Below, in pieces: positions 1 through 55,492 of a stretch of 56,348 bases of DNA (position 1 is its first letter; every line of letters begins with the position of its first letter). The DNA is from a virus (Duplodnaviria; Caudoviricetes): IMG/VR virus record IMGVR_UViG_3300032260_000005, positions 1 to 56,348 of that record; one strand, written 5' to 3'. The notes beneath the pieces were generated by a model. The model searched no databases. It was not told where the DNA came from and saw only the letters and a program-made list of their open reading frames with translations. The position numbers and the translations under genes were made by a program.

Positions 1-106
1 ATATCCATTTTCAACCTCGCGTATAACAAAGCAAATCAACTGGACGCTGAAAGCTCTGCGGGTTTTAAGTTAAGCGCCGTGGTGGCGCAAGTTATTTGCG
101 ATGTTA
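1..106. repeat. Terminal direct repeat (identical to 56243-56348); assembly circularity overlap
   Basis: First 106 nt equal last 106 nt; the cassette of ORF 56044-56271 joins attC 21-109 across the junction. Confidence 0.95.
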
Positions 107-109
107 GGC
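21..109 (+). repeat. attC-like site
   Basis: R'' GTATAAC, 5 nt, L'' AAATCAAC ... L' GTTATTT, 5 nt, R' GTTAGGC; GCGTATAAC is the exact complement of GTTATACGC at 56043. Confidence 0.9.
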
Positions 110-370
110 TTCAGTTATTAAGACCCAGAAATTGTCGTCAATTACTTTCTGAAACTCTGGCGGCAAATCCTCCTGGTTTTCCAAAGCTCGCATAAACTCT
201 CTATCTATGCCACAAGTAACATGCATAGGCATTATTTCCTGCCGCTTGCTGCATGCAGGGCAAACGTGAACCATCTTTTTGCCTTGCGGTATCACGATAT
301 GCTGAGGCGGGTTGTGCTCTGGGTGCATGCACATATCTGGTTTAGGTATATCTTCAAAATGTGTTGGCAT
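104..370 (-). CDS. Cassette ORF, Cys/His-rich hypothetical protein
   Basis: 88 aa, CMHPEH and HVCPAC motifs; stop TAA lies in R' at 103; upstream GAGG. Confidence 0.7.
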   Translation of the reverse strand: MPTHFEDIPKPDMCMHPEHNPPQHIVIPQGKKMVHVCPACSKRQEIMPMHVTCGIDREFMRALENQEDLPPEFQKVIDDNFWVLITEA

Positions 371-391
371 TCTATATATCCTCTTCGATTC

Positions 392-477
392 GCCTAACCA
401 TGCAAATCAATCTGAGCAGGTTAGTCTTTAGTTCTGTTCTGGCACTGAGTGTGCCAGCTTATTTGCAATGGTTATGT
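392..477 (+). repeat. attC-like site
   Basis: GCCTAAC ... CTTATTT ... GTTATGT; R'' complements GTTAGGC at 103. Confidence 0.85.
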
Positions 478-741
478 GTAGCCACGCCTTATTGCTTCGT
501 CACGCCTTTCAGCGTCCTGTCTGTTCCAGTGGTCGTATTCCGCATTGTGCCGATCAAGCTCCATCTGGTTTTGCCTGCAGCATTCTTCGCAGTAGCCTTC
601 GTGCAATTCTTCCATAGGCTCTCCGCATTGAGAGCAGTGCAAATCACACATAACAATGGCATCAACGGTGGACGCACCTAGTCTGTGCGCCAATTCAAGT
701 GCTTCTTGGTCTTCGTGTTTTACTGCTGGTTTATGCTTCAT
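472..741 (-). CDS. Cassette ORF, Zn-finger-like hypothetical protein; starts inside its attC
   Basis: CSQC...CEECC; GGAGG RBS and ATG lie within attC 648-780. Confidence 0.7.
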   Translation of the reverse strand: MKHKPAVKHEDQEALELAHRLGASTVDAIVMCDLHCSQCGEPMEELHEGYCEECCRQNQMELDRHNAEYDHWNRQDAERRDEAIRRGYT

Positions 742-780
742 CGTATTTCCTCCGGTGCGCCAGTTATGCTGTCGTTATGT
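648..780 (+). repeat. attC-like site
   Basis: ACATAAC, GCATCAAC ... GTTATGC, GTTATGT; ACACATAAC complements GTTATGTGT at 471. Confidence 0.85.
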
Positions 781-996
781 GTCATAAAAGCTTTCAAACC
801 CAATGCAACTAACAACCACCTTAAAACCTTCGTGCATTTCAGCGCGTTTATCAACATGCCTGCAATCCTGCAAAACGCGAGTGCATGTTTTGCACAATGA
901 TGTTGGGTATATTGAGTCCCTTATTGCCGCTTTGCCACATAACACGCCGTTCGAGGTGACAGAATCACCATCAGCGCCTTGTTCTGAATCTTTCAC
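775..996 (-). CDS. Cassette ORF, Cys-rich hypothetical protein
   Basis: 73 aa; GTG start within attC 937-1023; stop in R' at 774. Confidence 0.55.
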   Translation of the reverse strand: MKDSEQGADGDSVTSNGVLCGKAAIRDSIYPTSLCKTCTRVLQDCRHVDKRAEMHEGFKVVVSCIGFESFYDT

Positions 997-1023
997 GTCT
1001 GCACCTCAACTAAAATGTTATAC
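937..1023 (+). repeat. attC-like site (identical to 4007-4093)
   Basis: ACATAAC, GTTCGAGG ... CCTCAAC, GTTATAC. Confidence 0.9.
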
Positions 1024-1308
1024 AGTCAACGCACCTGTTGTCTTTGCGTACTCCATAAACTGGGACACCCTGGCTTTCTTGGCGTTAATTGCCTGTAGTG
1101 TGCCGCTCTTTTCAATAATTCCGCATTCTTCTAGCATCTCAATAACGGCGATTATGTCACAGCACTCAATAGCAATATCTTCAGCATTTGTTGTGTTGCC
1201 TCCTGGGTATCCATCCTCTGTTCCAAACCGCAAGGCTTTTGTGGCAGCTTGTTGTATCTCTGCGGCCTCTTCAATTAAGCAGGCTAGTAAGTGTTCTCTT
1301 TTATTCAT
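1018..1308 (-). CDS. Cassette ORF, MazG-like NTP pyrophosphohydrolase
   Basis: LIEEAAEIQQA ... IAIECCDIIAV (EExxE ... ExxD metal-binding pattern). Confidence 0.7.
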   Translation of the reverse strand: MNKREHLLACLIEEAAEIQQAATKALRFGTEDGYPGGNTTNAEDIAIECCDIIAVIEMLEECGIIEKSGTLQAINAKKARVSQFMEYAKTTGALTV

Positions 1309-1327
1309 ATCTGCGTGTCCTGTTGCT

Positions 1328-1412
1328 GAATAACAATCACTTCAATTTGACTGCGTGGTCATCGGCGCTCTTTTAGCTATCTGTGGGCAGCAGCTCATTA
1401 GCAACGTTATAC
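1328..1412 (+). repeat. attC-like site (eroded L boxes)
   Basis: GAATAAC ... GTTATAC; CTGAATAAC is 8/9 complementary to GTTATACAG at 1017. Confidence 0.65.
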
Positions 1413-1414
1413 CG

Positions 1415-1657
1415 CTACTGAACTGTACTTCTCTTCCAGTCAGCAATGCCTTCATTTTTAGCAATGTGGTTTGTAGTCCCTTGCATCCGGTCAACTGCCT
1501 CTTTCTGTCCTACGACTGCACACATTCCCAGCCCGCACATGCTGGCTAATTTCATCAGCACATTGGCAACGTCTTGCTCGTTTTTGCAGTCGCACGAATT
1601 TACATATTCTTCTACTGTTTTATTAGCCAGCTTTTCAGCTTCTTTCGGTTTTATCAC
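1415..1657 (-). CDS. Cassette ORF, hypothetical protein
   Basis: 80 aa, GAGG RBS, fills the space between two attC sites. Confidence 0.65.
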   Translation of the reverse strand: MIKPKEAEKLANKTVEEYVNSCDCKNEQDVANVLMKLASMCGLGMCAVVGQKEAVDRMQGTTNHIAKNEGIADWKRSTVQ

Positions 1658-1672
1658 GTTGCCATCCTCGCG

Positions 1673-1796
1673 TTATAACAAGTCGCATTAACTCGGACAC
1701 ATGCCGCAGTGTCCGGCGATCAAGTTTAGTTAAATGTTTCCGTCGTTCTATTCGTATTCAGTGTTGGCATGTGCTCGGTTATGCGCAACGTTATGC
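1673..1796 (+). repeat. attC-like site
   Basis: TTATAAC, GCATTAAC, CACATGCC ... GGCATGTG, GTTATGC, GTTATGC. Confidence 0.85.
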
Positions 1797-1800
1797 AGCC

Positions 1801-2010
1801 TTAATAATTGCCATCGTTCAAAATAGTTACGCTTTCAAAAGTTGTACTCAAAAGCACCATCTCCCCAGGCACGGCTGTTTCCTCTAAGCCCATATCAACA
1901 AGGCTACGGTTCAACGCTTCTGCGGCTTCTTCAGGGTTCTCTGCAACTACCACGGCGGCAGTGCCTACAGGATAGTGGCCTGTAAAACAATTATTGAAAT
2001 ATACGTTCAT
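1801..2010 (-). CDS. Cassette ORF, hypothetical phage protein
   Basis: 69 aa, TAAGGA RBS, ends NDGNY. Confidence 0.7.
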   Translation of the reverse strand: MNVYFNNCFTGHYPVGTAAVVVAENPEEAAEALNRSLVDMGLEETAVPGEMVLLSTTFESVTILNDGNY

Positions 2011-2030
2011 AGCGGTTCCTTATTAAATTT

Positions 2031-2115
2031 GCATAACCAGCCGTTCGAGGTGACAGCGAGGTCAATGCGGTTTGTTCTGGTTTCGGTGGGCTGCACCTCA
2101 ACTAAAATGTTATGC
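2031..2115 (+). repeat. attC-like site (arms shared with 937 and 4007)
   Basis: GCATAAC, GTTCGAGG ... CCTCAAC, GTTATGC; R'' complements R' at 1790. Confidence 0.9.
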
Positions 2116-2154
2116 CGCACACTCTACCAGCTGTGCGGCTTGCCTGTTTTGCTA

Positions 2155-2355
2155 TCAGGGCTTTCCATTATCGAGGTAGTCAATGTCTTGCGGTGCGTTT
2201 CTTAGTGAGCAATACTCAAGTTCCACTTTTAGCGAGTGAATAATTTTTCCTGCACTATTATTCATTTCAGAAGCCCGCTTCACATCAATTTTCCCGTTTT
2301 TTACATCTTGAAACAACTCTGATAGCTCTTTTCTCAATTCTACGATATTGTTCAT
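2155..2355 (-). CDS. Cassette ORF, small helical hypothetical protein
   Basis: 66 aa, overlaps the stop of 2352-2732; AAGGAG RBS. Confidence 0.7.
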   Translation of the reverse strand: MNNIVELRKELSELFQDVKNGKIDVKRASEMNNSAGKIIHSLKVELEYCSLRNAPQDIDYLDNGKP

Positions 2356-2732
2356 GTTCTACTCCTTATCTCTCGTTTGATTAAAATATTTAGTGCTTTT
2401 GCGGTTACTAATTCAGGCTCCTTAAACCTGTAGCGGTTTCTGACTTGATACTCTGCGTAGGCAATCGGGTTTGATTGCCTCCATTTCTTATGGCTTTCTA
2501 GACACCTTTCAGGGTTTCTTTGCTGCCATTCTTTTGCATGCTCGGGGTTCTTTTTTCGCCAAGCTAGGGCTTTGATTTTAATTCGCTCTTTATTCAGCTG
2601 ATAATACTTAGCATCTTCTTTACTTTTACACTCCTTGCATACAGTAGCCAGCCCATCTTTTGAGGCTGAATGTTTGCGGTAGCAATGATCTTGCTTTGTG
2701 ATGCCGCATTTCTTACAAGTTTTCTCGCTCAT
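2352..2732 (-). CDS. Zn-finger basic protein resembling the N-terminal part of HNH homing endonucleases, no catalytic HNH
   Basis: CKKC ... CKEC and repeated W(R/Q)xxNPE motifs. Confidence 0.6.
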   Translation of the reverse strand: MSEKTCKKCGITKQDHCYRKHSASKDGLATVCKECKSKEDAKYYQLNKERIKIKALAWRKKNPEHAKEWQQRNPERCLESHKKWRQSNPIAYAEYQVRNRYRFKEPELVTAKALNILIKREIRSRT

Positions 2733-2905
2733 GATTTGCTGCTCTCTTTCATAACACTTGCTACAGAAAGAAGAGATGCGGATAAAATGCTGTCTACAAT
2801 CTTTATTGCTCTTTCTTTTGTTAATCCGTCAACCGAGTGTGCTAACAATAGCACTGCGTTGTTTTTTAGAATTTCTATTTTTTCATCAATAGTTTGTTCT
2901 GTCAT
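2729..2905 (-). CDS. Small ORF missing from track (58 aa, MTEQTIDEKIEIL...)
   Basis: Translated by hand; AGGA RBS; TGA overlaps ATG of 2732. Confidence 0.55.
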   Translation of the reverse strand: MTEQTIDEKIEILKNNAVLLLAHSVDGLTKERAIKIVDSILSASLLSVASVMKESSKS

Positions 2906-2930
2906 AGCTTTATAGTCCTGTGTCAGTCCG

Positions 2931-3020
2931 GCCTAACCAGGCAAATCCAGCGGATGCCGATAGTCGTGTGCGTTTTAGTCTATTACCGCGCTAGGCACAG
3001 CTGATTATGCAACGTTATGA
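2931..3020 (+). repeat. attC-like site
   Basis: GCCTAAC, AAATCCAG ... CTGATTA, GTTATGA. Confidence 0.8.
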
Positions 3021-3377
3021 CTCTTCTTCATACCGTGCTTTAAACCATGTTGCTATTCTGTTGCGTTCAGCATCATCAAGCATCTCATCAAACTCCCACA
3101 TGATCTGATTCAGGCAGTCCATGCAGTCAAGCTCGGCATCACGATTGATTAGGTTTCGAGTGATGCTCATCTTTACCGGCCCAGGTTTGCGCATCTCTTC
3201 GATTAATTTAGCATCAGCCTTATATCCGTCAAATGATTCTGAGCCGTCACAAAACAACTCACTTGATCGACCAGAAAATCCTTTTAAGAATTGCTCAACT
3301 TCTGGTTCTGAATCAGCATTTGCAACAATGTGGTAAACAGTAAAATCTGTCATAACAATTAGCTCCAGGCGACGCAA
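3015..3377 (-). CDS. Cassette ORF, hypothetical protein (alternative start ATG at 3353, overlapping R'')
   Basis: 120 aa; stop in R' at 3014. Confidence 0.65.
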   Translation of the reverse strand: MRRLELIVMTDFTVYHIVANADSEPEVEQFLKGFSGRSSELFCDGSESFDGYKADAKLIEEMRKPGPVKMSITRNLINRDAELDCMDCLNQIMWEFDEMLDDAERNRIATWFKARYEEES

Positions 3378-3451
3378 TAAAGCGGCGCGGTTATCAGTTA
3401 AATTTGAGGTTCAGTAGGCGCTTTATTGCGCCCCTGAGCATGGTGTTAGAA
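3350..3451 (+). repeat. attC-like site
   Basis: TCATAAC, GCTCCAGG, CGCAATAAAGC ... GCTTTATTGCG, CCTGAGC, GTTAGAA. Confidence 0.9.
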
Positions 3452-3718
3452 TGCATCTCGCTCTATGCTCTCTATCTTGCCTCGGCGCTTTTCTATCCGC
3501 TGAGACCATCCGCAATGGGCGCATTCTTTAACTATTGATTGTCTAGCTGGCCCGTTGTACCAAGTACCGTCCGTATCTTTCCATGCCGTGTGGCAATCAG
3601 CCGTCACGCTACCATGCGCATTCCAATGAGGGCACCCGCACTTCGGGCATTCTAACAAGCACGTCAACTCTGACGCTGTGCTGTCACGTGGTTTCTTCTC
3701 TTCGTTTGAGTCAGTCAT
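3446..3718 (-). CDS. Cassette ORF, Zn-ribbon protein; starts inside its attC
   Basis: CPKC ... CAHC; GGGAG RBS within attC 3650-3772. Confidence 0.7.
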   Translation of the reverse strand: MTDSNEEKKPRDSTASELTCLLECPKCGCPHWNAHGSVTADCHTAWKDTDGTWYNGPARQSIVKECAHCGWSQRIEKRRGKIESIERDAF

Positions 3719-3772
3719 TGCCTATCTCCCTTTGCGGCCTAATAGGGGCGCAGGTTACGTTTATCGTTATGT
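3650..3772 (+). repeat. attC-like site
   Basis: TTCTAAC, ACGTCAAC ... GTTACGT, GTTATGT; GCATTCTAAC complements GTTAGAATGC at 3445 (10 bp). Confidence 0.9.
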
Positions 3773-4066
3773 GGCTTTATCGCATGCGTCTAATGCTTCT
3801 TTGGCCCAGGCTTTATATTCGTAGTCCATAGCATTAACACTCACTATCTTTTCCAGGTGGTGTCTATATACCCTGGCCTCAATCTCAAGGTTTCTTGCAA
3901 TGGTTCTGAGTTCTTCATAGCTTTTGCATCGCTGGTACTTGTTGCAAGCCCATGTCTCATTCCCGTCTTCATCAATCCTGGTATAGCGGCCCTGCTTACC
4001 GCAGCCACATAACACGCCGTTCGAGGTGACAGAATCACCATCAGCGCCTTGTTCTGAATCTTTCAC
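3767..4066 (-). CDS. Cassette ORF, hypothetical protein; first 21 aa identical to ORF 775-996
   Basis: MKDSEQGADGDSVTSNGVLCG encoded by the duplicated attC. Confidence 0.65.
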   Translation of the reverse strand: MKDSEQGADGDSVTSNGVLCGCGKQGRYTRIDEDGNETWACNKYQRCKSYEELRTIARNLEIEARVYRHHLEKIVSVNAMDYEYKAWAKEALDACDKAT

Positions 4067-4093
4067 GTCTGCACCTCAACTAAAATGTTATAC
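4007..4093 (+). repeat. attC-like site (identical to 937-1023)
   Basis: AGCCACATAAC complements GTTATGTGGCT at 3766 (11 bp). Confidence 0.9.
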
Positions 4094-4300
4094 AGCACAG
4101 AACCAATCACGAATTCCAGTTAATAGGCTTCGCTTGGGTTTAACTGTGCGGCAGCCACCGCTGTTCCATCCGGCATACCAATTATCAGCAGCGCCATAAA
4201 AGAACTCATCCCCATGGCTTTCGTATGGGCAAGAGCTTTTAGGTTCACCAGTATCTCTGGCCGCCCTGCCTTGCTCGTAAGCTTCTGCATCTGTAGTCAT
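4088..4300 (-). CDS. Cassette ORF, ribosome modulation factor (RMF/CrpP)-fold-like protein
   Basis: AYEQGRAA..G.PKSSCPY ... WYAGW resembles RMF (RGYQAGIAGRSKEMCPY ... WLGGW); GGAG RBS before ATG 4300. Confidence 0.6.
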   Translation of the reverse strand: MTTDAEAYEQGRAARDTGEPKSSCPYESHGDEFFYGAADNWYAGWNSGGCRTVKPKRSLLTGIRDWFCAV

Positions 4301-4318
4301 ATTTTCTCCGTTCGTGCT

Positions 4319-4407
4319 GTATAACAAAGGCAATTAACAATGGACGTATTCTTCATTTGTGGCAATTTCTAGCACCCAGCGCCGCCAGTTATTAGCCAAC
4401 GTTAGGC
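4319..4407 (+). repeat. attC-like site
   Basis: GTATAAC ... GTTAGGC; GTGCTGTATAAC complements GTTATACAGCAC at 4087 (12 bp). Confidence 0.88.
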
Positions 4408-4638
4408 ATCAAGCCTGAATGTCATCGCTTCGTTCTCAGTTATACCCTCATGTATGCAATCTGCGAAATACACAATCCCGTCTGTTGCGCGGATAAACCT
4501 CCATCCAAAAAACGAATCAGCACCTATATTGCCAGGAAGGTCATCCGGGTATTCAATAGCGTTTACTGCAAGCCATCTCATCGCATGCAATCTATTTGGC
4601 TTGTTCTTTGGTCTGAATTTCAATATTTTCGCAATCAT
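4402..4638 (-). CDS. Cassette ORF, hypothetical protein
   Basis: 78 aa; stop in R' at 4401. Confidence 0.65.
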   Translation of the reverse strand: MIAKILKFRPKNKPNRLHAMRWLAVNAIEYPDDLPGNIGADSFFGWRFIRATDGIVYFADCIHEGITENEAMTFRLDA

Positions 4639-4642
4639 AATA

Positions 4643-4810
4643 TCAATCCCATATCACCTGCGCAGTCATTTCACATTGGCGCTTCTTTTTGTCCAGAAAA
4701 ACAGCAACCCTCTGTCTTCCAGCATGCCCCGCTCCATCACTAAATCTTCTGCTTTCGTAGCGCAAGAGTTTGTTTGGTGGTCTGCAATAAACTGGTATAT
4801 ATGGTTTCAT
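4643..4810 (-). CDS. Small ORF missing from track (55 aa, MKPYIPVYCRPP...)
   Basis: Hand translation; fills the cassette upstream of 4638. Confidence 0.4.
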   Translation of the reverse strand: MKPYIPVYCRPPNKLLRYESRRFSDGAGHAGRQRVAVFLDKKKRQCEMTAQVIWD

Positions 4811-4817
4811 GTTCGAT

Positions 4818-4900
4818 GCCTAACAAGTAAAATCTAGCTGACGGGTCAAGTTCAGCGGCAAAATATACACCCAGAGCCGCAACTAATTTTCATGTTAGCC
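4818..4900 (+). repeat. attC-like site
   Basis: GCCTAAC, AAATCTAG ... CTAATTT, GTTAGCC; GATGCCTAAC complements GTTAGGCATC at 4401. Confidence 0.85.
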
Positions 4901-6205: not shown

Positions 6206-6340
6206 GAAGAACGATTAGCTAACCTGCACAGCGAGGAATTAACTATGTACTGTGATAAATGTGGAAGATTTTGGGAAGAGTGCGAATGTGACGAAAAGGC
6301 GCAAAAGAAAGCTGTGTCTGCGTTGAGCGGCTTGTTAGAA
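6206..6340 (-). repeat. attC-like site, last of array C; non-consensus R' (GTTCTTC) at junction to backbone
   Basis: On + strand: GAAGAAC-5 nt-GCTAAC ... GTTGAGC-5 nt-GTTAGAA. Confidence 0.7.
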
Positions 6341-6613
6341 GGCACTTGCACCAGTGCGGCATCTTGCGAGAACCAGGAGCCTGTTACTGTTGAGAGCTTG
6401 CTTGCAGCTAAGAAAATGATGGATGAAAAATTCCCCGACCCTATTGCACAATGCATGAGGGAAAAAGGATTTGACCCGAATAATGGCGGCATTCTCTTTT
6501 TACACGAATCAATGAGGAGAGAAATGCCATTTATACCTAGCTATGTGCGTTTCTCTTCACTAATTGATGCGCCCCTATTGATTGACAGCAGGGTAGTGCC
6601 GGGTGCCTTCTAA
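6245..6613 (+). CDS. Cassette ORF, hypothetical protein; starts inside its attC
   Basis: GAGGA RBS; CDKC..CEC N-terminus; TAA at crossover 6611-6613. Confidence 0.65.
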   Translation: MYCDKCGRFWEECECDEKAQKKAVSALSGLLEGTCTSAASCENQEPVTVESLLAAKKMMDEKFPDPIAQCMREKGFDPNNGGILFLHESMRREMPFIPSYVRFSSLIDAPLLIDSRVVPGAF

Positions 6614-6696
6614 CGCCCAAAATAACTGGGCGCGTGACCAAGTTTAAATAGAAGCGGGGCGCTTTATTCGCTCCATGTTGATTTTGATTGTTAGAG
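6608..6696 (-). repeat. attC-like site
   Basis: TTCTAAC, AAATAAC ... GTTGATTT, GTTAGAG; GTGCCTTCTAAC complements GTTAGAAGGCAC at 6334 (12 bp). Confidence 0.9.
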
Positions 6697-6832
6697 GCGC
6701 TACGGAGTAACAAATGAGACAAGATTGCCATTATTACCATGAGTGCAAATTGCCAGCCCAACTCTGTAACTCAAAGTGCAAAGAGTTTAAAAAGGCAGAT
6801 TGGGGTGGGATTAAACCAAAGAGGAAAAAGAA

Positions 6833-7021
6833 ATGAGCGACCATAAATATTGGGATGAGGATGTAGAAAAAGCCGTAAACAATGCATGCATTGGCAATGA
6901 AGACTCTTACGAGATTCAGTTTAAAGAGCCAGTGGAGGCATTCAATATCCATAAAGATGATGTTATTCACTTAGCAAAGTGTTTTGGGCTTGCTGTTTAT
7001 GAGAAAGATACTGCCCTCTAA
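6833..7021 (+). CDS. Cassette ORF, hypothetical protein (preceded by a 40-aa Cys-rich ORF at 6714-6836)
   Basis: 62 aa, GAGG RBS, TAA at crossover. Confidence 0.65.
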   Translation: MSDHKYWDEDVEKAVNNACIGNEDSYEIQFKEPVEAFNIHKDDVIHLAKCFGLAVYEKDTAL

Positions 7022-7139
7022 CATCGTTATTAACCGGCGCTTGCGCCGAAAAGGAGCCATAAAATGAATGAGAACGAAACCGCAGAAACAACGCCAGCCG
7101 CTGAGCTTGAAGCGTCCGCGTTGAATAACCTTGTTATGC
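7016..7139 (-). repeat. attC-like site containing RBS and start codon
   Basis: CTCTAAC, TATTAAC ... GTTGAATA, GTTATGC; AAGGAG and ATG 7064 lie inside. Confidence 0.9.
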
Positions 7140-7372
7140 GAACCCATGAGACTATTTATCTAATCCCTACTGAGGAAGGTATGGAGTGGTGTGTTGGCCC
7201 AGCACCCGGTAACGATATGGAAGAAAATTACTCGGTCAGATATGTTAGATCTGACATCCATGAAATGGAGCTAAAGCGACTGAGCGACATGCTTTTAATT
7301 GAGCGAAAGGCACATATCAGAGTGAAAGCACGGGTTGAAGAGGCTGTGGCCACACTTAATAAAATATACTGA
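7064..7372 (+). CDS. Cassette ORF, hypothetical protein
   Basis: 102 aa; N-terminal about 25 aa encoded by attC. Confidence 0.7.
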   Translation: MNENETAETTPAAELEASALNNLVMRTHETIYLIPTEEGMEWCVGPAPGNDMEENYSVRYVRSDIHEMELKRLSDMLLIERKAHIRVKARVEEAVATLNKIY

Positions 7373-7373
7373 C

Positions 7374-7462
7374 GCATAACGATTAATTGAGGAGCGCGGC
7401 GCTCCCAAGCTTGAACAAAACGCCGCTAATTAAACCGCGTCTGCTCGAATGACGTGTTATAC
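7374..7462 (-). repeat. attC-like site
   Basis: GCATAAC, ATTGAG ... CTCGAAT, GTTATAC. Confidence 0.85.
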
Positions 7463-7483
7463 AGCGAGATTATTTAGGAGACT

Positions 7484-7807
7484 ATGATGGATATACAAAG
7501 ACTGAGAAACCTAACCACAGGTAGATTGCACACGGAAATGGGCCATATTTACGAAGACCTCGGCATGCTCACTGGTGAAGAAGGATTGATGACTCATATG
7601 CTGCCAAGAGCAATGAAGGCGGTTGAGCCATGGCTGCGAGAGAACGTGAAGGATGGGCGATTTTGGGATGACGAATACGACACCACCCATGTTGGCGAGT
7701 ATGACTTGCCAGTACCAACTGAGGCAGACCAGAAAGTTTTCCTTGAAAGATATGCAGAAATGCCAAACCCATTAGCTGGAAAAGAGGTGATAGGGGCAGC
7801 TGTATAA
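7484..7807 (+). CDS. Cassette ORF, hypothetical phage protein
   Basis: 107 aa, AGGAG RBS, TAA at crossover. Confidence 0.75.
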   Translation: MMDIQRLRNLTTGRLHTEMGHIYEDLGMLTGEEGLMTHMLPRAMKAVEPWLRENVKDGRFWDDEYDTTHVGEYDLPVPTEADQKVFLERYAEMPNPLAGKEVIGAAV

Positions 7808-7933
7808 CATCGCAATTAACCCGACCACGGGCAGACAAATAAGGACTATATGAAATGACTAAATCGAACGAAAGCAACCAAACAGAAAACGAGCACCACA
7901 GTAGTGGGTCGGCGTTGAATTGCCTTGTTATGC
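7802..7933 (-). repeat. attC-like site containing RBS and start codon
   Basis: GTATAAC, AATTAAC ... GTTGAATT, GTTATGC; GCTGTATAAC complements GTTATACAGC at 7456. Confidence 0.9.
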
Positions 7934-8217
7934 CTACCGATATGAAGGTGCATCTTGTAGAGGTTTTTTATCAGCGCGGTGACCCTGCTTTTACATGCGG
8001 ATCAATTGGCCACTGGTGTATAGAGAATTTATTAACCATTGAAGCTCAAGTTAATGATGGGATGGATGATGAAGACAAGGCCAATCTTTTTACTGATGGA
8101 GATGGATCATATCTTTTTGACATGAGTTTTGAGCCGCCAGATTATGAGTTAGGCGGCATAGGTGATGGATACTGGTATTTCGAGAAAGTTAAATACAAGC
8201 CTGTGATTAAGGCATAA
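7855..8217 (+). CDS. Cassette ORF, acidic hypothetical protein
   Basis: 120 aa; starts in attC; TAA at crossover. Confidence 0.7.
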   Translation: MTKSNESNQTENEHHSSGSALNCLVMPTDMKVHLVEVFYQRGDPAFTCGSIGHWCIENLLTIEAQVNDGMDDEDKANLFTDGDGSYLFDMSFEPPDYELGGIGDGYWYFEKVKYKPVIKA

Positions 8218-8298
8218 CGTTTAGTTGAGGTGCTGCCAGCACCGACAATAAAGAAAGGCGCTAATGGTGGCGCAGTCAGCTCTAACGGCTTGTTAGGG
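8212..8298 (-). repeat. attC-like site (same family as 937/2031/4007, inverted)
   Basis: GCATAAC, TTTAGTTGAGGTGC ... GTTAGGG. Confidence 0.8.
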
Positions 8299-8319
8299 TG
8301 CATTTTAAGAGTAACGATC

Positions 8320-8520
8320 ATGACAAAAGAAGAATTAGTAGATGAATTCTCAGAGCTTGCAAAGGCTGACATAGAGGGGGCTTTACAGGTTATCACCGGC
8401 CTTTTTGTTGGACTGAATGTGGCGTTTGTAGAGCTACGGGGTAACGACGGGGATGGCAGTAAACAGATAACAATAGATGGGCCTGAGGGGCAGCGAAAGA
8501 TTACGATCCATGCAGCATAA
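8320..8520 (+). CDS. Cassette ORF, hypothetical protein
   Basis: 66 aa from ATG 8320 (track start 8230 lies in attC). Confidence 0.6.
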   Translation: MTKEELVDEFSELAKADIEGALQVITGLFVGLNVAFVELRGNDGDGSKQITIDGPEGQRKITIHAA

Positions 8521-8598
8521 CACTTAATTAATTTGCGGCGCATTGATGCATATACGACCGCGAATGAAGAATACGTCAAATTTAATGTTTTGTTATTT
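8515..8598 (-). repeat. attC-like site (partly eroded)
   Basis: GCATAAC ... GTTATTT with AT-rich arms. Confidence 0.7.
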
Positions 8599-8619
8599 TG
8601 CGAGATCGAGGAAACAGAA

Positions 8620-8853
8620 ATGAATAGAAGATTATTTGTGAAAGGTGCGGTTGCCTTAGCTATTGTCCCAGGTGTTGTTTTGAGTGCCAATAAACCAAGA
8701 TTGCACACTTTTTCCAACCTAGTTGGTGTAGACGGCAAACCGATCACTGTGGAGATATACCCAGAGCAAGAGGCATCATTTGCAACTGCTGGCAGGGCCG
8801 GGAGACACAGCGCATTAAACCTGGACAAGCTATGCAGGGCACGGAGGGACTAA
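8620..8853 (+). CDS. Cassette ORF with twin-arginine signal-like N-terminus
   Basis: MNRRLFVKGAVALAIVPGVVLSA; GAGGA RBS; followed by 41-aa membrane ORF 8853-8978. Confidence 0.6.
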   Translation: MNRRLFVKGAVALAIVPGVVLSANKPRLHTFSNLVGVDGKPITVEIYPEQEASFATAGRAGRHSALNLDKLCRARRD

Positions 8854-8980
8854 TGCTAGCGTATCTAGAAATGGTATTGACAGCGTTTATATTTATTGCA
8901 ATAGGGGCTATTAGCGTAGAGCTGATAGCAGTAAAGCTAGGGCTGTTACCAGGGGTGAAACTCCCTTGGGACGATTAGCC

Positions 8981-9068
8981 AAATAACATTCAAAATCAGG
9001 AGCGGCACTCGGTGCCTGCTTAAAAACCACAACGCTTAAACCCGTCTGCTGAATTTTGTTGGTTAGGC
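8981..9068 (-). repeat. attC-like site
   Basis: AAATAAC, CAAAATCAG ... CTGAATTTTG, GTTAGGC. Confidence 0.8.
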
Positions 9069-9099
9069 GATTTGATGAACCGGAAACTAGGAGCTGAAA

Positions 9100-9330
9100 A
9101 TGGAAAAACAAGATATTAAGAAGGGCGACTTGGTGCAACTGAACCCGGAAACCGTGGGTAATAAGATGTTCACAGCATGCATTATGGTAATTACTGAGCC
9201 TAAGCCATGGGGCGCGCAAGGGTATGTGCAAGCTTTTGGCGTTGAAGGTGGGCGCGGTGGCCAAGCATATTACAGGGCTAAATGGGAAGAGATGGAGTTA
9301 GTAGGGCATGCTGAATGGGTTGCAGCCTAA
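9100..9330 (+). CDS. Cassette ORF, small SH3/KOW-like beta-barrel protein
   Basis: IKKGDLVQL N-terminus; AGGAG RBS; TAA at crossover. Confidence 0.7.
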   Translation: MEKQDIKKGDLVQLNPETVGNKMFTACIMVITEPKPWGAQGYVQAFGVEGGRGGQAYYRAKWEEMELVGHAEWVAA

Positions 9331-9448
9331 CATCGTGCTTAACCTGGCCACGGCCAGACAACACTGGACACTATGAATATGAACAGTACAACTGAAACCA
9401 AAACCAAACACCGCAGTAGTGGATCAGCGTTGAAGCACCTGGTTATGC
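9325..9448 (-). repeat. attC-like site containing start codon (related to 7802-7933)
   Basis: GCCTAAC, GCTTAAC ... GTTGAAGC, GTTATGC. Confidence 0.9.
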
Positions 9449-9864
9449 GTGATCCTAGCGCCCAAATTAAAGCATGGATTAATGATAGCTATGAGCAATG
9501 GCAATTTTGGCTAACTGTAGTTTCTGCTGAAAATTATGATGGACTAGATAAAACAAAAGAGCAGGCAGAAAACTTGGTTGGCTACTACGAAGGCCAATAT
9601 GACCTAGCTTGTGATGTGCGTGATTTTGTTTCCCAGCAAACAGTAAGTGATGGCAACGCTTTTGACCTTGGTACAACTTTTAAAAAACAAGGTCGCAAAG
9701 ACAAGGATCGAATCTACACGGTAGAAGATATTTACACCACAACCAATATAGCTGGGCATGTAGTTAAGCAGCGGTACGTTGCATCATCCACCTTCTGCGG
9801 GCAGAAAGTAACTGATAGAGATATACCCAGCGCAACTATAGCTAGGGGACGGTGTGACGCATAA
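9373..9864 (+). CDS. Cassette ORF, hypothetical protein
   Basis: 163 aa; starts in attC; TAA at crossover. Confidence 0.7.
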   Translation: MNMNSTTETKTKHRSSGSALKHLVMRDPSAQIKAWINDSYEQWQFWLTVVSAENYDGLDKTKEQAENLVGYYEGQYDLACDVRDFVSQQTVSDGNAFDLGTTFKKQGRKDKDRIYTVEDIYTTTNIAGHVVKQRYVASSTFCGQKVTDRDIPSATIARGRCDA

Positions 9865-9947
9865 CAACGTAAATAACCGGGCGCGTGCCCAACTTTAAAT
9901 AAAACCACTACTGACGGGGCGCTCCGAGTTGATTTGCCTTGTTAGGT
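9859..9947 (-). repeat. attC-like site (related to 6608-6696)
   Basis: GCATAAC, AAATAAC ... GTTGATTT, GTTAGGT. Confidence 0.9.
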
Positions 9948-9963
9948 TACAGGAGAAACAACC

Positions 9964-10266
9964 ATGAAAGCTATAGGCTACACAGTAAGCACCGTTGTAA
10001 TAATGTTTTTGCTATGCGTATTTAGTGGATACACGTTAAGCATTTTGTGGCAGTGGTTTGTTATGCCAATATTCCCTGCCCCAGAGCTTACGATACCGAC
10101 CGCTATCGGCCTTGCCATGATAGTTACCTATTTGACTCATCAGGACACCAAGAGCGATACAGAAGGGAAAGGATATGGAGAGATACTTCTGGAGATGACA
10201 TTAAAAGGCATTGGCAGACCAGCTGGCGCTTTATTCTTTGGCTGGATAGTAACTCTGTTTTTGTAA
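9964..10266 (+). CDS. Cassette ORF, membrane protein (about 3 TM segments)
   Basis: Hydrophobic stretches; AGGAG RBS. Confidence 0.75.
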   Translation: MKAIGYTVSTVVIMFLLCVFSGYTLSILWQWFVMPIFPAPELTIPTAIGLAMIVTYLTHQDTKSDTEGKGYGEILLEMTLKGIGRPAGALFFGWIVTLFL

Positions 10267-10363
10267 CCTAACAGGTAATATTCGGCACTCGACTGAATTA
10301 CTCAGGTATTAATCGCTCCGCAGCCTTAACTGTTGTGCTGATTGCGGGATATTCGGCAGGCAA
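10267..10363 (-). repeat. Candidate attI-like site, inverted copy of 49210-49307
   Basis: Near-identical 97-nt inverted repeat whose identity ends at the GTTAGG core; TGTAACCTAAC complements GTTAGGTTACA at 9941. Confidence 0.65.
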
Positions 10364-10382
10364 TAATTAGGAGAAAATTAAC

Positions 10383-49180: not shown

Positions 49181-49209
49181 CAATATCCTTATACCAGTCC
49201 ATTCTGTTT

Positions 49210-49308
49210 TTGCCTGCCGAATATCCCGCAATCAGCACAACAGTTAAGGCTTGAGGCTGATTTAATACCTGAGTAATTCAGTCGAGTGCCGAATATTACC
49301 TGTTAGGC
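49210..49308 (+). repeat. Candidate attI-like site heading array A
   Basis: Inverted copy of 10267-10363; internal direct repeat TGCCGAATAT (49215, 49287); ends in GTTAGGC. Confidence 0.65.
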
Positions 49309-50274
49309 CGCACTAATCCTATCCTGTGCAATCTTGAAATACTGCTCATCGAGTTCTATTCCAATAAAGCGGCGGTTTAGATTCTTGCAGGCCACACCTG
49401 TGGTTCCGCTGCCCATTGTGAAATCGCATACCGTATCGCCTTCGTTGGTATAGGTGTTGATCAAGTCCTCAATTAATGCTACCGGCTTCTGTGTTGGGTG
49501 CAACCCGGTATAATCTTTTTTGTATTCCAGCACATTGCTTTTGTATTTCTCGCCATCTGGCAAATTAAACACTTTAGGGCTTGCTGCCGTCATCTTTTCT
49601 ATTAAGTCAAACCTGTATGCCTTGTCCTCCTTGGTTAAATCAGCAAACTCTCTAAATCCGCTCATGCAATCTATCTTATATAGCCCTACCAGCTCGCTGT
49701 AGGTTTTCTCTGTACACATATTAAACTGTGAGGTTTCGTGCCTCATAAAGTGGCACAGCCCTTGGTGCCTCATATCTGAAAACACCTCTTTTTTCTTTTT
49801 ACCTATAAACTCGCATATAGCTTTTGCGTATGGGCGCAGAGGGTGAAAGCCTTCAAAATCGTGCTTGGTATGCTTTTTGAAGAAGAGGCATATATCCTCT
49901 GTGTAATTCACTGGCGCTTTGTTTACTACCAGGGAGTTGGCAAAATGATCTTTAAGCCACACTAGCCTATAGCTAAAAGGCACATTATTGTGGGCTTCGC
50001 ATATCATCCTGCTTGTGAATGGCTCCTGGCTAAATATCGCCATCGCTCCATTAACCCGTATAACACGGTTGCACTCTTCGTTAATCTCTTTCTGTGGTAG
50101 GCATTCATCCCACTCTGATTCTGCCAGCCTTTTATATCGCGGCTCACTTGCACCCATTCCACCCGCTGTACCATATGGTGGGTCAGTCAATATCATATCA
50201 ACCGATCCATCTGGTATTTCTTTCATCATCTCAAGGCAATCGCCCTGCATTAGCTTTATCATAGTGGTTTCCAT
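49303..50274 (-). CDS. DNA N6-adenine/N4-cytosine methyltransferase (beta class), carried as a cassette
   Basis: GDCLE, TDPPYG, HPTQKPVAL, DFTMGSGTTG, FIGIELD. Confidence 0.92.
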   Translation of the reverse strand: METTMIKLMQGDCLEMMKEIPDGSVDMILTDPPYGTAGGMGASEPRYKRLAESEWDECLPQKEINEECNRVIRVNGAMAIFSQEPFTSRMICEAHNNVPFSYRLVWLKDHFANSLVVNKAPVNYTEDICLFFKKHTKHDFEGFHPLRPYAKAICEFIGKKKKEVFSDMRHQGLCHFMRHETSQFNMCTEKTYSELVGLYKIDCMSGFREFADLTKEDKAYRFDLIEKMTAASPKVFNLPDGEKYKSNVLEYKKDYTGLHPTQKPVALIEDLINTYTNEGDTVCDFTMGSGTTGVACKNLNRRFIGIELDEQYFKIAQDRISAA

Positions 50275-50291: not shown

Positions 50292-50354
50292 GCCTAACCA
50301 GGCAAATCAACGCGGACAGCAAAAAGCGTTGCCGGTTATTTGCGGATGTTATGT
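50292..50354 (+). repeat. attC-like site (63 nt)
   Basis: GCCTAAC, AAATCAAC ... GTTATTT, GTTATGT; CGGCCTAAC complements GTTAGGCCG at 49302. Confidence 0.92.
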
Positions 50355-50543
50355 GTCTTTAATTATCCGCTCAATATCGCTAGGTTTTAGTTGCTGACGC
50401 CATTTTGGCTTCCAGTCTTCGTGCCATTTTTTTACTTCTCTAGTGACGCTATTAAAAATAACGACCGATACGCAGCCGCTTATTTTATAAAAATACAGCA
50501 CACCATCAACAGTTATTTCCTTTCGCCCTTTCTTGGGTAGCAT
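50349..50543 (-). CDS. Cassette ORF, hypothetical protein
   Basis: 64 aa, AAGGAGG RBS, stop at crossover. Confidence 0.75.
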   Translation of the reverse strand: MLPKKGRKEITVDGVLYFYKISGCVSVVIFNSVTREVKKWHEDWKPKWRQQLKPSDIERIIKDT

Positions 50544-50563
50544 TCGCCAACCTCCTTAGTTAC

Positions 50564-50686
50564 ACATAACAAGCCAATTAAAGCTGACTTGCTACCGCGT
50601 AGTTTAATTTAAAGTTTCTAGTGTTCGTTTTGTTTCAGTGTTTCCAGCGTCATCAATTCGCAAGCAGTTTATTGGTGTCGTTATGC
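50564..50686 (+). repeat. attC-like site
   Basis: ACATAAC, CAATTAAA ... TTTATTG, GTTATGC; ACACATAAC complements GTTATGTGT at 50348. Confidence 0.85.
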
Positions 50687-54515: not shown

Positions 54516-54575
54516 GCCTAACAAAACGCTGCACCAGACACTCGCTTCGCTCGTGCAGTGAGCTAAGTGTTAGGC
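54516..54575 (+). repeat. attC-like site (60 nt, classical short type)
   Basis: GCCTAAC AAAAC GCTGCAC ... GTGAGC TAAGT GTTAGGC. Confidence 0.9.
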
Positions 54576-54595
54576 CGCACACTCTACCAGCTGTG

Positions 54596-54886
54596 CTACA
54601 TGTGCAGCATATGAATAACTGCGAGTAATGAATAAGCACCAGTGGCGAATGCAAGCAGTACCAAATAAACACCGGCGATATATTTAATCGCAATAAAAAG
54701 CATCAGTATTAACGTCAGCTTTATAGTCATTAGGCCAGTATACCCTGCATTTTCAATCACCCACCACGCAATTGGATTAGCCTCCTCGTATCCTATTTGT
54801 ATAGCGTTTGCTGTTGCATATACGTCAAACGCATTTGTTATGAGCAACAACAATATTAGAATTTTAGCCATATTAATCTGTTTCAT
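54596..54886 (-). CDS. DUF5658-like membrane protein
   Basis: FDVYAT ... EEANPI ... K, three TM segments. Confidence 0.7.
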   Translation of the reverse strand: MKQINMAKILILLLLITNAFDVYATANAIQIGYEEANPIAWWVIENAGYTGLMTIKLTLILMLFIAIKYIAGVYLVLLAFATGAYSLLAVIHMLHM

Positions 54887-54936
54887 ATCTCCTCCGTATA
54901 AGGCCGCGCAAGTCGAAACCTGCGCGGCCTTGCGTC

Positions 54937-55482: not shown

Positions 55483-55492
55483 GCCATTCCCC

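What the first reader, a model, noticed from the sequence alone, without database searches (positions are those of the whole stretch)
6206..10272. Cassette ORFs are inverted relative to canonical attC polarity
In canonical cassettes the L'' box with the extra base lies just downstream of the ORF on the coding strand. Here the extra-base box (AAATCAAC, GTTCGAGG, GCTCCAGG, ACGTCAAC) is on the + strand in arrays A and B, where ORFs are on -, and on the - strand in array C, where ORFs are on +. So each attC sits at the 5' end of its gene. R'/R'' pairing agrees: the cassette unit is attC plus the gene downstream of it. Inference: phage cassettes captured by a host integron would be antisense to Pc, and canonical host cassettes (for example defence or toxin genes) landing here would be antisense to the phage promoters, separating the two gene pools.
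Basis: partly seen in the sequence, partly recalled or inferred. Interest (0 to 1): 0.88.

Follow-up and report, generated by a model that had tools for sequence, protein, structure and literature searches.

The report
Phage integron cassettes with reversed genes
A complete tailed-phage genome carries about 26 genuine integron-type attC recombination sites whose neighbouring genes all lie on the opposite strand to the one used in bacterial integrons, and the same mirror-image layout turns up in many other viral contigs.

Summary
The window is a complete 56-kb tailed phage with no tyrosine or serine recombinase. A covariance model built only from attC sites of bacterial integrons placed 82 of 82 control sites on the expected strand. 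In the window it calls the attC top strand antisense to the genes at all 22 sites it detects. A window-trained model raises this to 27 of 27 sites, one of them the terminal-repeat copy.

Other evidence agrees:
- The extra-helical bases have the right identity, sit on the right arm and show the 6-bp spacing.
- Each array ends in a lone R box followed by a conserved ~95-nt element.
- In two natural variants a gene travels with the attC on its 5' side, and the breakpoints fall at the AAC of the R boxes.

Boxes flanking each gene are exact mates in 21 of 27 cases. This shows cassette-wise site-specific assembly, but the test is symmetric and gives no polarity.

The reversed layout recurs in four related viral contigs and in most of 39 other IMG/VR loci. 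Phage TJE1 is canonical.

No recombination was observed, the recombinase is unidentified, and the proposed separation of gene pools is untested. I rate it a new variant of a known kind, of high interest.

The parts
6206..10272 (+). Right cassette array ('array C'). It holds 10 attC sites, each followed by its gene(s) on the + strand, and is closed by a lone R box.
6206..6340 (-). attC site, top strand on -. ORF 6245-6613 starts inside its loop. The outer R box GAAGAAC (6206-6212) is the junction with the conserved backbone.
   Evidence: R3 30.2 bits. Arm alignment. Contigs in runs X2 and X3 break at 6210-6213.
6608..6696 (-). attC site, top strand on -.
   Evidence: R2 13.1 bits, R3 28.9 bits. 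A bulged G on the 3' arm of the + strand in the DNA fold.
7016..7139 (-). Long attC, top strand on -. Its loop holds the ribosome-binding site and start of ORF 7064-7372.
   Evidence: R3 37.5 bits
7374..7462 (-). attC site, top strand on -.
   Evidence: R2 29.3 bits, E=1e-4; R3 52.7 bits
7802..7933 (-). Long attC, top strand on -. It encodes the first 26 residues of ORF 7855-8217. The same attC, about 94% identical, occurs in two other phages fused to unrelated protein bodies.
8212..8298 (-). attC site, top strand on -.
   Evidence: R2 27.3 bits; R3 48.9 bits
8515..8598 (-). attC site, top strand on -. It is the first part of the cassette shared with contig G001.
8981..9068 (-). attC site, top strand on -.
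9325..9448 (-). Long attC, top strand on -. ORF 9373-9864 starts inside it.
9859..9947 (-). attC site, top strand on -. It has three extra bases (C, T, A) on the top-strand 5' arm.
10266..10272 (-). Lone R box (ACCTAAC on +, GTTAGGT on -). It is the exact mate of the distal box of site 9859-9947.
10273..10366 (-). Array-end element E. It is attI-like by position only and contains the direct repeat ATATTCGGCA twice.
   Evidence: Three different cassettes abut it in natural contigs.
49207..49301 (+). Second copy of element E, inverted relative to the first. It closes the left array in the same relative orientation.
49302..49308 (+). Lone R box GTTAGGC of the left array. It is the exact mate of R'' of site 50292-50354.
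49303..50274 (-). Cassette gene next to element E: an N6_N4 DNA methyltransferase.
   Evidence: Pfam PF01555, E=9e-35
50292..50686 (+). Two attC sites (50292-50354 and 50564-50686), top strand on +, among genes on -.
54516..56049 (+). Two attC sites (54516-54575 and 55980-56049), top strand on +, among genes on -.
21..4900 (+). Thirteen attC sites, top strand on +, among genes on -. Sites: 21-109, 392-477, 648-780, 937-1023, 1328-1412 (weak), 1673-1796, 2031-2115, 2931-3020, 3350-3451, 3650-3772, 4007-4093, 4319-4407, 4818-4900.

Best explanation
Two early-gene regions of this virulent-type tailed phage are integron-style cassette arrays. They span 49302 through the genome end to 4900, and 6206 to 10272, about 16 kb or 28% of the genome.

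Shown:
- The sites are structurally bona fide attC sites.
- Each gene lies on the attC bottom strand, the strand that integron integrases recombine.
- Read in the direction of the gene, a cassette is attC, then gene, then the first six bases of the next R box. The stop codon usually sits inside that box.
- In the long attC sites the ribosome-binding site and start codon lie inside the attC loop.
- Each array starts with a complete attC next to the divergent early promoter region. It ends with a lone R box plus a conserved ~95-nt element placed where attI would sit.
- Breakpoints between related genomes fall at the AAC of R boxes.

Inferred:
- Cassettes are inserted, lost and swapped by an IntI-type integrase supplied by the host.
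- The reversed polarity makes the recombinogenic strand the non-template strand in transcription. If replication runs with transcription, that strand is also the lagging-strand template, so it is exposed often.
- Any cassette exchanged with a bacterial integron would end up antisense to the recipient's promoter.
For: Canonical polarity was checked on R100 aadA1: the 8-nt L'' box lies next to the ORF stop on the coding strand.

Strand calls:
- Model R1 put 82 of 82 hits in 57 integron loci on the strand that reads away from intI.
- Model R2, built from those 82 sites, window sites, all antisense to the genes. Seven have E<0.01. The best is 43.1 bits, and its opposite strand was not listed at E<=10.
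- Model R3 of 27 sites antisense. The opposite strands score 17.8 bits or less.

Extra-helical bases: the extra bases are C, then a 6-bp stem, then A, on the model-called top 5' arm in 23 of 26 sites. On the other strand these are G and T, as Nivina et al. 2016 describe (passages).

Gene strand:
- PHROG hits for 7 of 10 and 4 of 10 array ORFs.
- Codon model: 0 sense and 23 antisense in the window, against 36 sense and 4 antisense in bacterial integron loci.
- Longest ORF: 3 sense and 20 antisense in the window, against 34 and 4 in the bacterial loci.

Site-specific assembly: the boxes flanking each gene are exact mates in 21 of 27 cases, and 0 of 20000 permutations reach that. Bacterial integrons give 32 of 41.

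Architecture: a lone R box plus element E sits at the gene-sense 3' end of both arrays.

Natural variants:
- Window 8575-8988 is 100% identical in contig G001, and the 5' arm 8517-8536 is also identical. The block ends at the next R box and there abuts E.
- Contig 9 of run X2 holds window 6210-6614 with no differences. It runs from the AAC of one R box to the AAC of the next, and both flanks are unrelated to the window.

Recombinases: no tyrosine or serine recombinase was found in the phage, and no tyrosine recombinase in four relatives.

Generality:
- G001 has 11 sites, all antisense to its genes.
- G002 has 5 sites and G003 has 5, all antisense.
- G004 has 17 sites, of which about 15 are clearly antisense.
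- In 39 other IMG/VR loci the split is 104 antisense to 41 sense by longest ORF and 88 to 45 by codon model.
- PHROG hits: 7 of 20 antisense ORFs, against 1 weak hit among 20 sense ORFs.
Against: - No recombination was observed; everything is comparative.
- No integrase is known for these sites, and the host is unknown.
- Fifteen of the 22 R2 hits have E>0.01. R3 was trained on the window itself.
- The same attC, 94-100% identical, is found with unrelated downstream gene bodies in other phages and contigs. I explain this by attC families, as in chromosomal integrons, but have not shown it.
- The shared cassette 8517-8988 has an unrelated attC loop (8537-8574) in G001.
- G004 has no E-like repeat, and one of its arrays ends in a complete attC. 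The architecture argument therefore rests on this phage and G001 alone.
- Run X1 may be the source sample. Contig 14 of X2 is the same variant as G001, so the natural variants amount to two events.
- The survey is noisy. The codon model called 9 of 39 loci mostly sense, although PHROG hits in two of those loci favoured antisense.
Confidence: 0.75

Rival explanations
1. The sites are attC-like, but the enzyme that acts on them uses the other strand or the other R box. In function the cassettes would then be canonical: gene followed by its attC. The extra-base asymmetry would be misleading for this system.
For: - The R-box mating signature is symmetric and fits either polarity.
- Identical or near-identical attC sites occur upstream of unrelated gene bodies, with similarity ending at the distal box.
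- One array of G004 ends in a complete attC, as a canonical array would.
Against: - Both informative shared cassettes keep the 5' attC and lose the 3' attC.
- The arrays end in a lone xxxxAAC box plus a non-palindromic element. That is the mirror image of attI-G|TTRRRY.
- In four long attC sites the gene's ribosome-binding site and start lie inside the upstream attC.
- The identity and 6-bp spacing of the extra bases match the integrase-contacting bases of canonical bottom strands.
Confidence: 0.08
2. The palindromes are phage intergenic elements, such as terminators or RNA-processing or translation-control hairpins. Genes would be shuffled by homologous recombination through the phage's own Erf-like annealing protein and exonuclease, not by an integron integrase.
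For: - The phage encodes an Erf-like protein (12969-13454, E=4e-52) and an exonuclease-like protein.
- It encodes no site-specific recombinase.
- attC families of 94-100% identity are shared among phages.
- Some attC loops carry translation starts.
Against: - Junctions share only TAAC(A), about 5 nt (joint 8983 to 10269, 'both' = 5). That is too short for annealing-based recombination.
- Mates are exact across each gene rather than within a site, in 21 of 27 cases. This is the footprint of a cut inside the R box and equals bacterial integrons at 32 of 41.
- A model trained on bacterial attC sites finds the phage sites.
- A model trained on the phage sites finds sites in 48 of 151 sampled Gammaproteobacteria genomes. 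That count includes the unpublished genome G150; without it the figure is 47 of 150. I did not check that those hits lie in integrons.
Confidence: 0.08
3. The arrays are a piece of a bacterial chromosomal integron, or an assembly chimera, and not a feature of the phage.
For: - The record is a metagenome assembly.
- The Logan assembly breaks at the attC sites.
- The arrangement around element E differs between the window and G001.
Against: - The record is complete with terminal repeats and carries head, portal, terminase, tail-fibre and helicase genes.
- The array genes match phage families.
- The arrays are co-directional with the flanking phage operons.
- Four related viral contigs and many other viral contigs show the same layout.
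- Bacterial arrays have the opposite gene polarity.
Confidence: 0.03

Closest known systems
Cassette arrays of bacterial integrons (class 1 and sedentary chromosomal integrons)
   Same: - attC anatomy: R and L boxes, unpaired spacer, two or three extra-helical bases with a 6-bp stem, and length 60-135 nt.
- Exact R-box mates across each cassette.
- An array that starts, on the top strand, at a non-palindromic site with a GTTRRRY box.
   Different: - There is no intI.
- Genes lie on the bottom strand in every cassette, against 4 of 40 by codon model in my bacterial control.
- Transcription enters from the attI-distal end.
- Some genes start inside the attC.
[quoted passage not shown] 2023, PMC9892861 (abstract, methods passages and section 3.4 read)
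   Same: - attC clusters without intI in virulent phages.
- Orphan N6_N4 DNA methyltransferase cassettes.
- Qi et al. showed that IntI1 recombines phage attC sites.
   Different: - They report 17 CALINs with at least two attC sites each. Here there are about 26 in one genome.
- They describe TJE1 as having the typical structure, and my model agrees: 3 of 3 sites are sense.
- A reversed gene polarity is not mentioned in the text I read.
Reverse-oriented cassettes with their own promoters in chromosomal integrons, such as toxin-antitoxin cassettes
   Same: The gene is antisense to the attC top strand within a true cassette.
   Different: - Those cassettes are a minority within otherwise canonical arrays and rely on internal promoters. 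Richard et al. 2024, PMC13108822, mention the own promoters in passages I saw. That they are reverse-oriented is recalled, not seen.
- Here the reversal is uniform and the genes are read as an operon from an external phage promoter.
Promoter-early stem-loop modules of T4-like phages (recalled from memory, no call)
   Same: Repeated intergenic hairpins flank small, variable early genes.
   Different: As I recall them, those elements are promoter/terminator units shuffled by homologous recombination. They lack R and L boxes, extra-helical bases and exact R-box mating. I did not test them here.

Membership tests
integron attC site (59-base element) | Terminal inverse core and core boxes, RYYYAAC ... 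GTTRRRY. | tested here: met
   All 27 listed sites start with xxxxAAC and end with GTTxxxx on the model-called top strand. A few depart from strict R/Y, for example GAAGAAC at 6206.
integron attC site (59-base element) | Extra-helical bases on one arm only: G first and T last on the bottom strand, separated by a 6-bp stem (Nivina 2016, passages). | tested here: met
   23 of 26 sites have the extra bases on one arm. The pattern is typically C, then 6 bp, then A on the top strand, with a third base in about half of the sites.
integron attC site (59-base element) | Unpaired central spacer of about 5-6 nt, and total length 57-141 bp. | tested here: met
   Spacers are 4-6 nt by reading. Site lengths are 60-135 nt.
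integron attC site (59-base element) | Scores with a covariance model of bona fide attC sites. | tested here: met
   With R2, built from 82 bacterial sites, 7 sites have E<0.01 and 22 have E<10. IntegronFinder's own model was not available. Rfam has no match.
integron attC site (59-base element) | Recombined by an integron integrase as a folded bottom strand. | not testable with these tools
   Only indirect evidence: exact R-box mates and natural breakpoints at the AAC of R boxes.
complete integron | An intI gene next to the array. | tested here: not met
   TIGR02249 and PF00589 give no match in the whole phage. PF00589 gives none in G001-G004.
complete integron | An attI site at the top-strand start of the array. 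| tested here: inconclusive
   A conserved ~95-nt element with a GTTAGG(C/T) box sits at that position in both arrays and in G001. Three different cassettes abut it. Integrase binding is unknown.
[quoted passage not shown] | Two or more attC sites close together with no intI nearby. | tested here: met
canonical integron cassette (gene on the top strand, attC 3' of the gene) | The gene's sense strand is the attC top strand. | tested here: not met
   0 of 23 inter-attC segments are sense by codon model and 3 of 23 by longest ORF. Those three resolve to antisense through PHROG hits and overlapping start/stop codons.

The most novel reading that the evidence does not exclude
Tailed phages keep a mirror-image integron system. 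It consists of an attI-like array-end element plus arrays of 'attC then gene' cassettes written on the recombinogenic strand. A host integron integrase would serve it in trans during infection. This would give phages a site-specific shuffling system for early accessory and counter-defence genes. The phage cassette pool would be mechanically compatible with bacterial integrons but incompatible with them in expression. The layout would be the rule, not the exception, for virus-borne attC arrays.
Probability: 0.45. Interest if true: 0.92.

Novelty: new variant of a known kind. Interest (0 to 1): 0.82.

Why it matters
Integrons are regarded as bacterial devices whose function depends on cassettes entering in one orientation, so that Pc can read them. 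Here a phage devotes about 28% of its genome to arrays built by the same chemistry but with every gene reversed. The reversal recurs across unrelated viral contigs.

If host integrases act on these sites, several things follow:
- Phages have a dedicated site-specific mechanism for exchanging early genes. The arrays here include orphan DNA methyltransferases, a MazG-like pyrophosphohydrolase and a Lar-like or endonuclease VII-like protein.
- Phage and bacterial cassettes can physically mix, yet remain silent in each other's arrays.
- The presence and type of attC in a phage becomes a clue to its host.

There is also a practical point. Integron-finding tools report attC strand and genes separately, so reversed arrays in viral data would be filed as ordinary CALINs unless orientation is checked.

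Tried and rejected
- **Rfam.** No family matched at gathering scores. I saw no attC family in the results.
- **Fold-based detector.** A symmetric detector based on minimum-free-energy DNA folds worked on GC-rich bacterial sites: 39 of 42 bulges lay on the expected arm. It found a bulge in only 5 of the window's AT-richer, long-looped sites. I replaced it with covariance models.
- **R-box mating as a polarity test.** Rejected after working it through, because the relation is strand-symmetric.
- **An 'inversion' between the two E copies.** G001 joins its array to the window's 49305-46962 module. The rest of that contig has no nucleotide match to the window. It is therefore a mosaic relative, or an assembly join at a repeat, and not a demonstrated inversion.
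- **An E-like repeat in G004.** None was found, and its array ends do not settle polarity.
- **E in other viral contigs.** Only G001 has it.
- **Close relatives.** Megablast of 1-16000 against isolated phages found nothing. The helicase-like protein has relatives at 31.5% identity or less, so no host could be named.
- **PH101 and P12002L.** R2 run through the genome search found nothing. That route uses a loose first look, so this is no evidence that those phages lack sites.
- **Link between orientation and a tyrosine recombinase.** No clear link appeared among 10 viral contigs.
- **Y1 transposase.** One 11.9-bit match inside the helicase gene falls below the cut-off and was discarded.
- **Host search.** R3 over 151 Gammaproteobacteria genomes gave hits in 48, including the unpublished genome G150 (47 of 150 without it). 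No lineage stood out.
- **Literature.** Seven searches found no paper in the held library describing reversed gene polarity in phage attC arrays. Two candidate preprints held no relevant passage.

Full report
**What the window is.** The window is a whole IMG/VR virus record of 56,348 bases, rated 100% complete, with direct terminal repeats. The first 106 bases are repeated exactly at the end. It is a tailed phage. PHROG matches cover a major head protein (E=1e-53), a portal or adaptor protein, the large terminase, a tail fibre, a DNA helicase, an Erf-like annealing protein and an exonuclease-like protein. Its closest isolated relatives share no more than 31.5% identity in the helicase-like protein, and megablast finds nothing. 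No integron integrase (TIGR02249), tyrosine recombinase (PF00589) or serine recombinase (PF00239) is encoded.

**Fixing the canonical polarity from data.** On plasmid R100 the aadA1 coding strand reads: stop codon, TGTCTAAC, a 5-nt spacer, GTTCAAGC (8 nt), then GCTTAAC (7 nt), a 6-nt spacer and GTTAGAT. I used the IntI1 frame of R100 to fetch 80 integron loci. A strand-symmetric fold-based detector placed the bulge on the 5' arm of the strand that reads away from intI in 39 of 42 bulged sites. Eleven of these sites seeded covariance model R1. In 57 integron loci all 82 of its hits fell on that same strand. Those 82 sites gave model R2. Passages of Nivina et al. 2016 supply the defining features:
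- AAC lies in R' on the bottom strand.
- The extra-helical bases sit near L'', usually G first and T last on the bottom strand, separated by a 6-bp stem.
- Those bases are on the same arm as AAC on the top strand.
- The spacer is 5-6 nt and the total length is 57-141 bp.

R2, run on the whole window without filters, detects 22 sites. Where the genes are on - (1-4900 and 50292-56049) every site is called on +. In 6206-10272, where the genes are on +, every site is called on -. Seven sites have E<0.01, and the best are 43.1, 37.8, 37.8, 29.3 and 27.3 bits. Only one site also scores well on the other strand (54516: 26.5 against 14.8 bits). Model R3 was built from the 14 best window sites as oriented by R2. 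It finds 27 sites at E<=0.004, all antisense to the genes, while the opposite strands score 17.8 bits or less. One of the 27 is the terminal-repeat copy. A weak further site lies at 1328-1412.

Aligning the two arms of each site shows the extra bases on the 5' arm of the called top strand in 23 of 26 sites. The usual pattern is C, then six paired bases, then A, often with a third extra base between. On the gene-sense strand these are G and T on the arm opposite AAC, which is the description of a bottom strand.

**Gene strand.** This is not in doubt:
- 7 of 10 left-array ORFs and 4 of 10 right-array ORFs match phage protein families.
- Pfam adds DUF7736 and an N6_N4 methyltransferase.
- A codon model trained on each locus's own long ORFs gives 0 sense and 23 antisense in the window, against 36 sense and 4 antisense in the bacterial loci.
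- The plain longest-ORF rule gives 3 and 20 in the window, against 34 and 4.
- As a positive control for a sense call in a phage, R2 places all three attC sites of Tetrasphaera phage TJE1 on the coding strand at the 3' ends of orf1-orf3.

**Are these recombination sites, or just hairpins?** For each site I compared the four variable bases of one terminal box with three others: the box across the gene, the site's own other box, and the box two positions away. The box across the gene is an exact complement in 21 of 27 cases. The site's own box matches in 3 of 27, and the far one in 1 of 25. No shuffle out of 20,000 reaches 21 (mean 3.6, maximum 11). Bacterial integron arrays give 32 of 41 and 10 of 41. 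This is the footprint of a cut inside the R box followed by joining to another site, so it reflects cassette-by-cassette site-specific assembly. The lone boxes at the array ends take part in the pattern: GTTAGGC at 49302-49308 and ACCTAAC at 10266-10272 are exact mates of the adjacent cassettes. However, the relation says only that the two boxes flanking a gene are mates, and it reads the same on either strand.

**Independent evidence for polarity and for the unit.**

*(a) Architecture.* Read in the gene direction, each array begins with a complete attC and ends with a lone xxxxAAC box. That box is followed by a conserved, non-palindromic ~95-nt element (10273-10366, with an inverted copy at 49207-49301) containing a 10-nt direct repeat. 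This is the reverse complement of 'attI then G|TTRRRY then first cassette'.

*(b) Natural variants.* Contig G001 is 99.4% identical to the window over 5142-6227 and then carries a different array. One cassette is shared. Positions 8575-8988 are 100% identical, and so is the 5' arm 8517-8536. The block ends at AAATAAC of the next site, and in G001 it is joined directly to the array-end element. The joint 8983 to 10269 is also present in run X2, with only 5 ambiguous letters. In X2 an 822-nt contig holds window 6210-6614 without a single difference. The match runs from the AAC of box 6206-6212 to the AAC of box 6608-6614, and the contig's flanks on both sides are unrelated to the window. In both cases the gene keeps the attC on its 5' side and not the one on its 3' side. 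In X3 the backbone runs to 6213 and then continues into a different attC.

*(c) Gene starts inside attC.* In the four long attC sites (6206, 7016, 7802, 9325) the ribosome-binding site and start codon lie in the attC loop, and the 3' arm is translated as ...SAL.xL(V/L)(M/E). Only the reversed unit keeps these genes whole.

**Points that do not fit neatly.**
- The attC at 7802-7933 occurs at about 94% identity in G001 and G004. In each genome it encodes the same 26-residue N-terminus fused to an unrelated protein body. Several Logan contigs also show window-like attC arms next to other sequence. I read this as attC families shared among unrelated cassettes, as in chromosomal integrons, but it is not proven.
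- The shared cassette has an unrelated loop (8537-8574) in G001.
- G004 has no E-like repeat, and one of its arrays ends in a complete attC.
- Fifteen of the 22 R2 hits are individually weak (E>0.01).

**How general is it?** A motif taken from the window's sites found five further viral contigs. R2 and R3, run on those contigs and on G001, show four contigs with arrays:
- G001 has 11 sites.
- G002 has 5 sites.
- G003 has 5 sites.
- G004 is a complete 38.7-kb phage with 17 sites in divergent arrays.

In these contigs the attC top strand is antisense to the flanking ORFs. Two sites at the edge of one G004 array are ambiguous. None of the four encodes a tyrosine recombinase.

A consensus pattern for the top-strand 5' arm then returned at least 120 viral stretches, of which 80 were listed. 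R2 found 223 sites in those 80 loci. In the 39 loci with three or more sites, inter-attC segments are 104 antisense and 41 sense by longest ORF. By codon model they are 88 antisense and 45 sense, with 22 loci mostly antisense, 9 mostly sense and 8 tied. I took ORFs from four loci called mostly antisense and four called mostly sense. Among antisense ORFs, PHROG hits came to 4 of 10 and 3 of 10, with E-values down to 1.6e-53 and including another DNA methyltransferase. Among sense ORFs they came to 0 of 10 and 1 weak hit of 10. Pfam gave 1 of 10 against 0 of 10. The reversal is therefore common in viral contigs, though not universal, since TJE1 is canonical. The survey is rough. The loci were chosen by one motif, the gene calls are mechanical, and I did not verify that each contig is a phage.

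**Most likely mechanism.**

*Shown.* The sites have full attC anatomy. Their polarity is uniformly opposite to the genes. The arrays carry the site-specific recombination footprint. Related genomes differ by whole 'attC plus gene' units, with breakpoints at R-box AAC triplets.

*Inferred.* An IntI-type integrase from the host does the cutting, because the phage has none and Qi et al. 2023 showed that IntI1 recombines attC sites from virulent phages (section 3.4 read). The array-end element may serve as the attI-like entry site.

*Consequences of the reversal (inference).*
- The recombinogenic strand is the non-template strand of heavy early transcription.
- If forks move with transcription, that strand is also the lagging-strand template. 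In Vibrio cholerae this is the condition that raises cassette excision (Richard et al. 2024, passages).
- Because strand selectivity fixes the insertion orientation, a phage cassette captured at a bacterial attI would be antisense to Pc, and a bacterial cassette captured here would be antisense to the phage promoter. It is logically sound, but there is no evidence about actual exchange.

**Comparison with what is known.** attC clusters without an integrase in phages were published by Qi et al. 2023. They report 17 clusters with at least two sites each and describe TJE1 as typical. Seven literature searches found nothing else on the point. New here are the scale (about 26 sites covering 28% of a genome), the uniform reversal, the attI-like array ends, the gene starts inside attC loops, and the recurrence across viral contigs.

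**Verdict.** The finding is real, it is a new variant of a known kind, and it is of high interest.

Noticed in passing
window 10273-10366 and 49207-49301 (inverted copies); L082/L094 (contig G001): The ~95-nt array-end element occurs twice, each time directly upstream of the first gene of a conserved operon. In G001 the array that follows the 5142-6227 module is joined through this element to the window's 49305-46962 module instead of to 10383 onward. The rest of G001 has no nucleotide match to the window. This could be module swapping at the element, or an assembly join at a repeat.
   Followed up: partly
window 7016-7139, 7802-7933, 9325-9448, 6206-6340; L082 5673-5996; G004 12686-12814: Long attC sites encode hydrophilic N-terminal leaders of about 25 residues ending in SAL.xLVM. 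The 7802 attC, about 94% identical in three phages, gives the same leader fused to three unrelated protein bodies. An in-frame ATG also lies inside the distal R box (GTTATGC).
   Followed up: partly
window 8537-8574 versus L082 (reverse complement) about 5612-5647: In a cassette that is otherwise 100% identical between two phages, the attC loop is replaced by unrelated sequence while both arms stay identical.
   Followed up: no
window joints 7139 to 8210 and 7139 to 9855 in contigs of run X2: Contigs in which the distal box of a long-type attC is followed within a few bases by the next attC. These look like gene-less, attC-only cassettes in the natural population. Only 22-29 letters lie on the shorter side of each joint, so confidence is low.
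   Followed up: no
window 49303-50274 (-); L163 1125-1814 (-): Orphan N6_N4 DNA methyltransferase genes occur as reversed cassettes in two unrelated viral contigs. In the window the gene is the cassette next to the array-end element. Qi et al. 2023 noted the same Pfam family in phage attC clusters.
   Followed up: partly
window 937-1023 and 4007-4093: Two identical 87-nt attC copies sit 3 kb apart. Identity runs a few bases beyond both R boxes. The GTG-initiated ORFs 775-996 and 3767-4066 would share an attC-encoded N-terminus preceded by GAGG from the L box.
   Followed up: no
window 1-106 = 56243-56348: The 106-bp terminal repeat ends inside attC site 21-109. The left array is therefore continuous across the record's ends. 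The repeat may be an assembly overlap of a circular or permuted genome rather than true physical ends.
   Followed up: partly
window 50687-54515: A 3.8-kb stretch without attC sites lies inside the left array and holds a DNA helicase (51630-53123) and several small genes. The R boxes on either side are not exact mates (3 of 4 variable bases).
   Followed up: no
window 12969-14134: An Erf-like single-strand annealing protein and an exonuclease-like protein lie just downstream of the right array. They are a possible alternative route to mosaicism at the conserved attC arms.
   Followed up: no
G004 about 18684-18860 (L089): By eye, the ORF just upstream of the first attC of one G004 array translates to a CsrA-like sequence. 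No family search was run on it.
   Followed up: no
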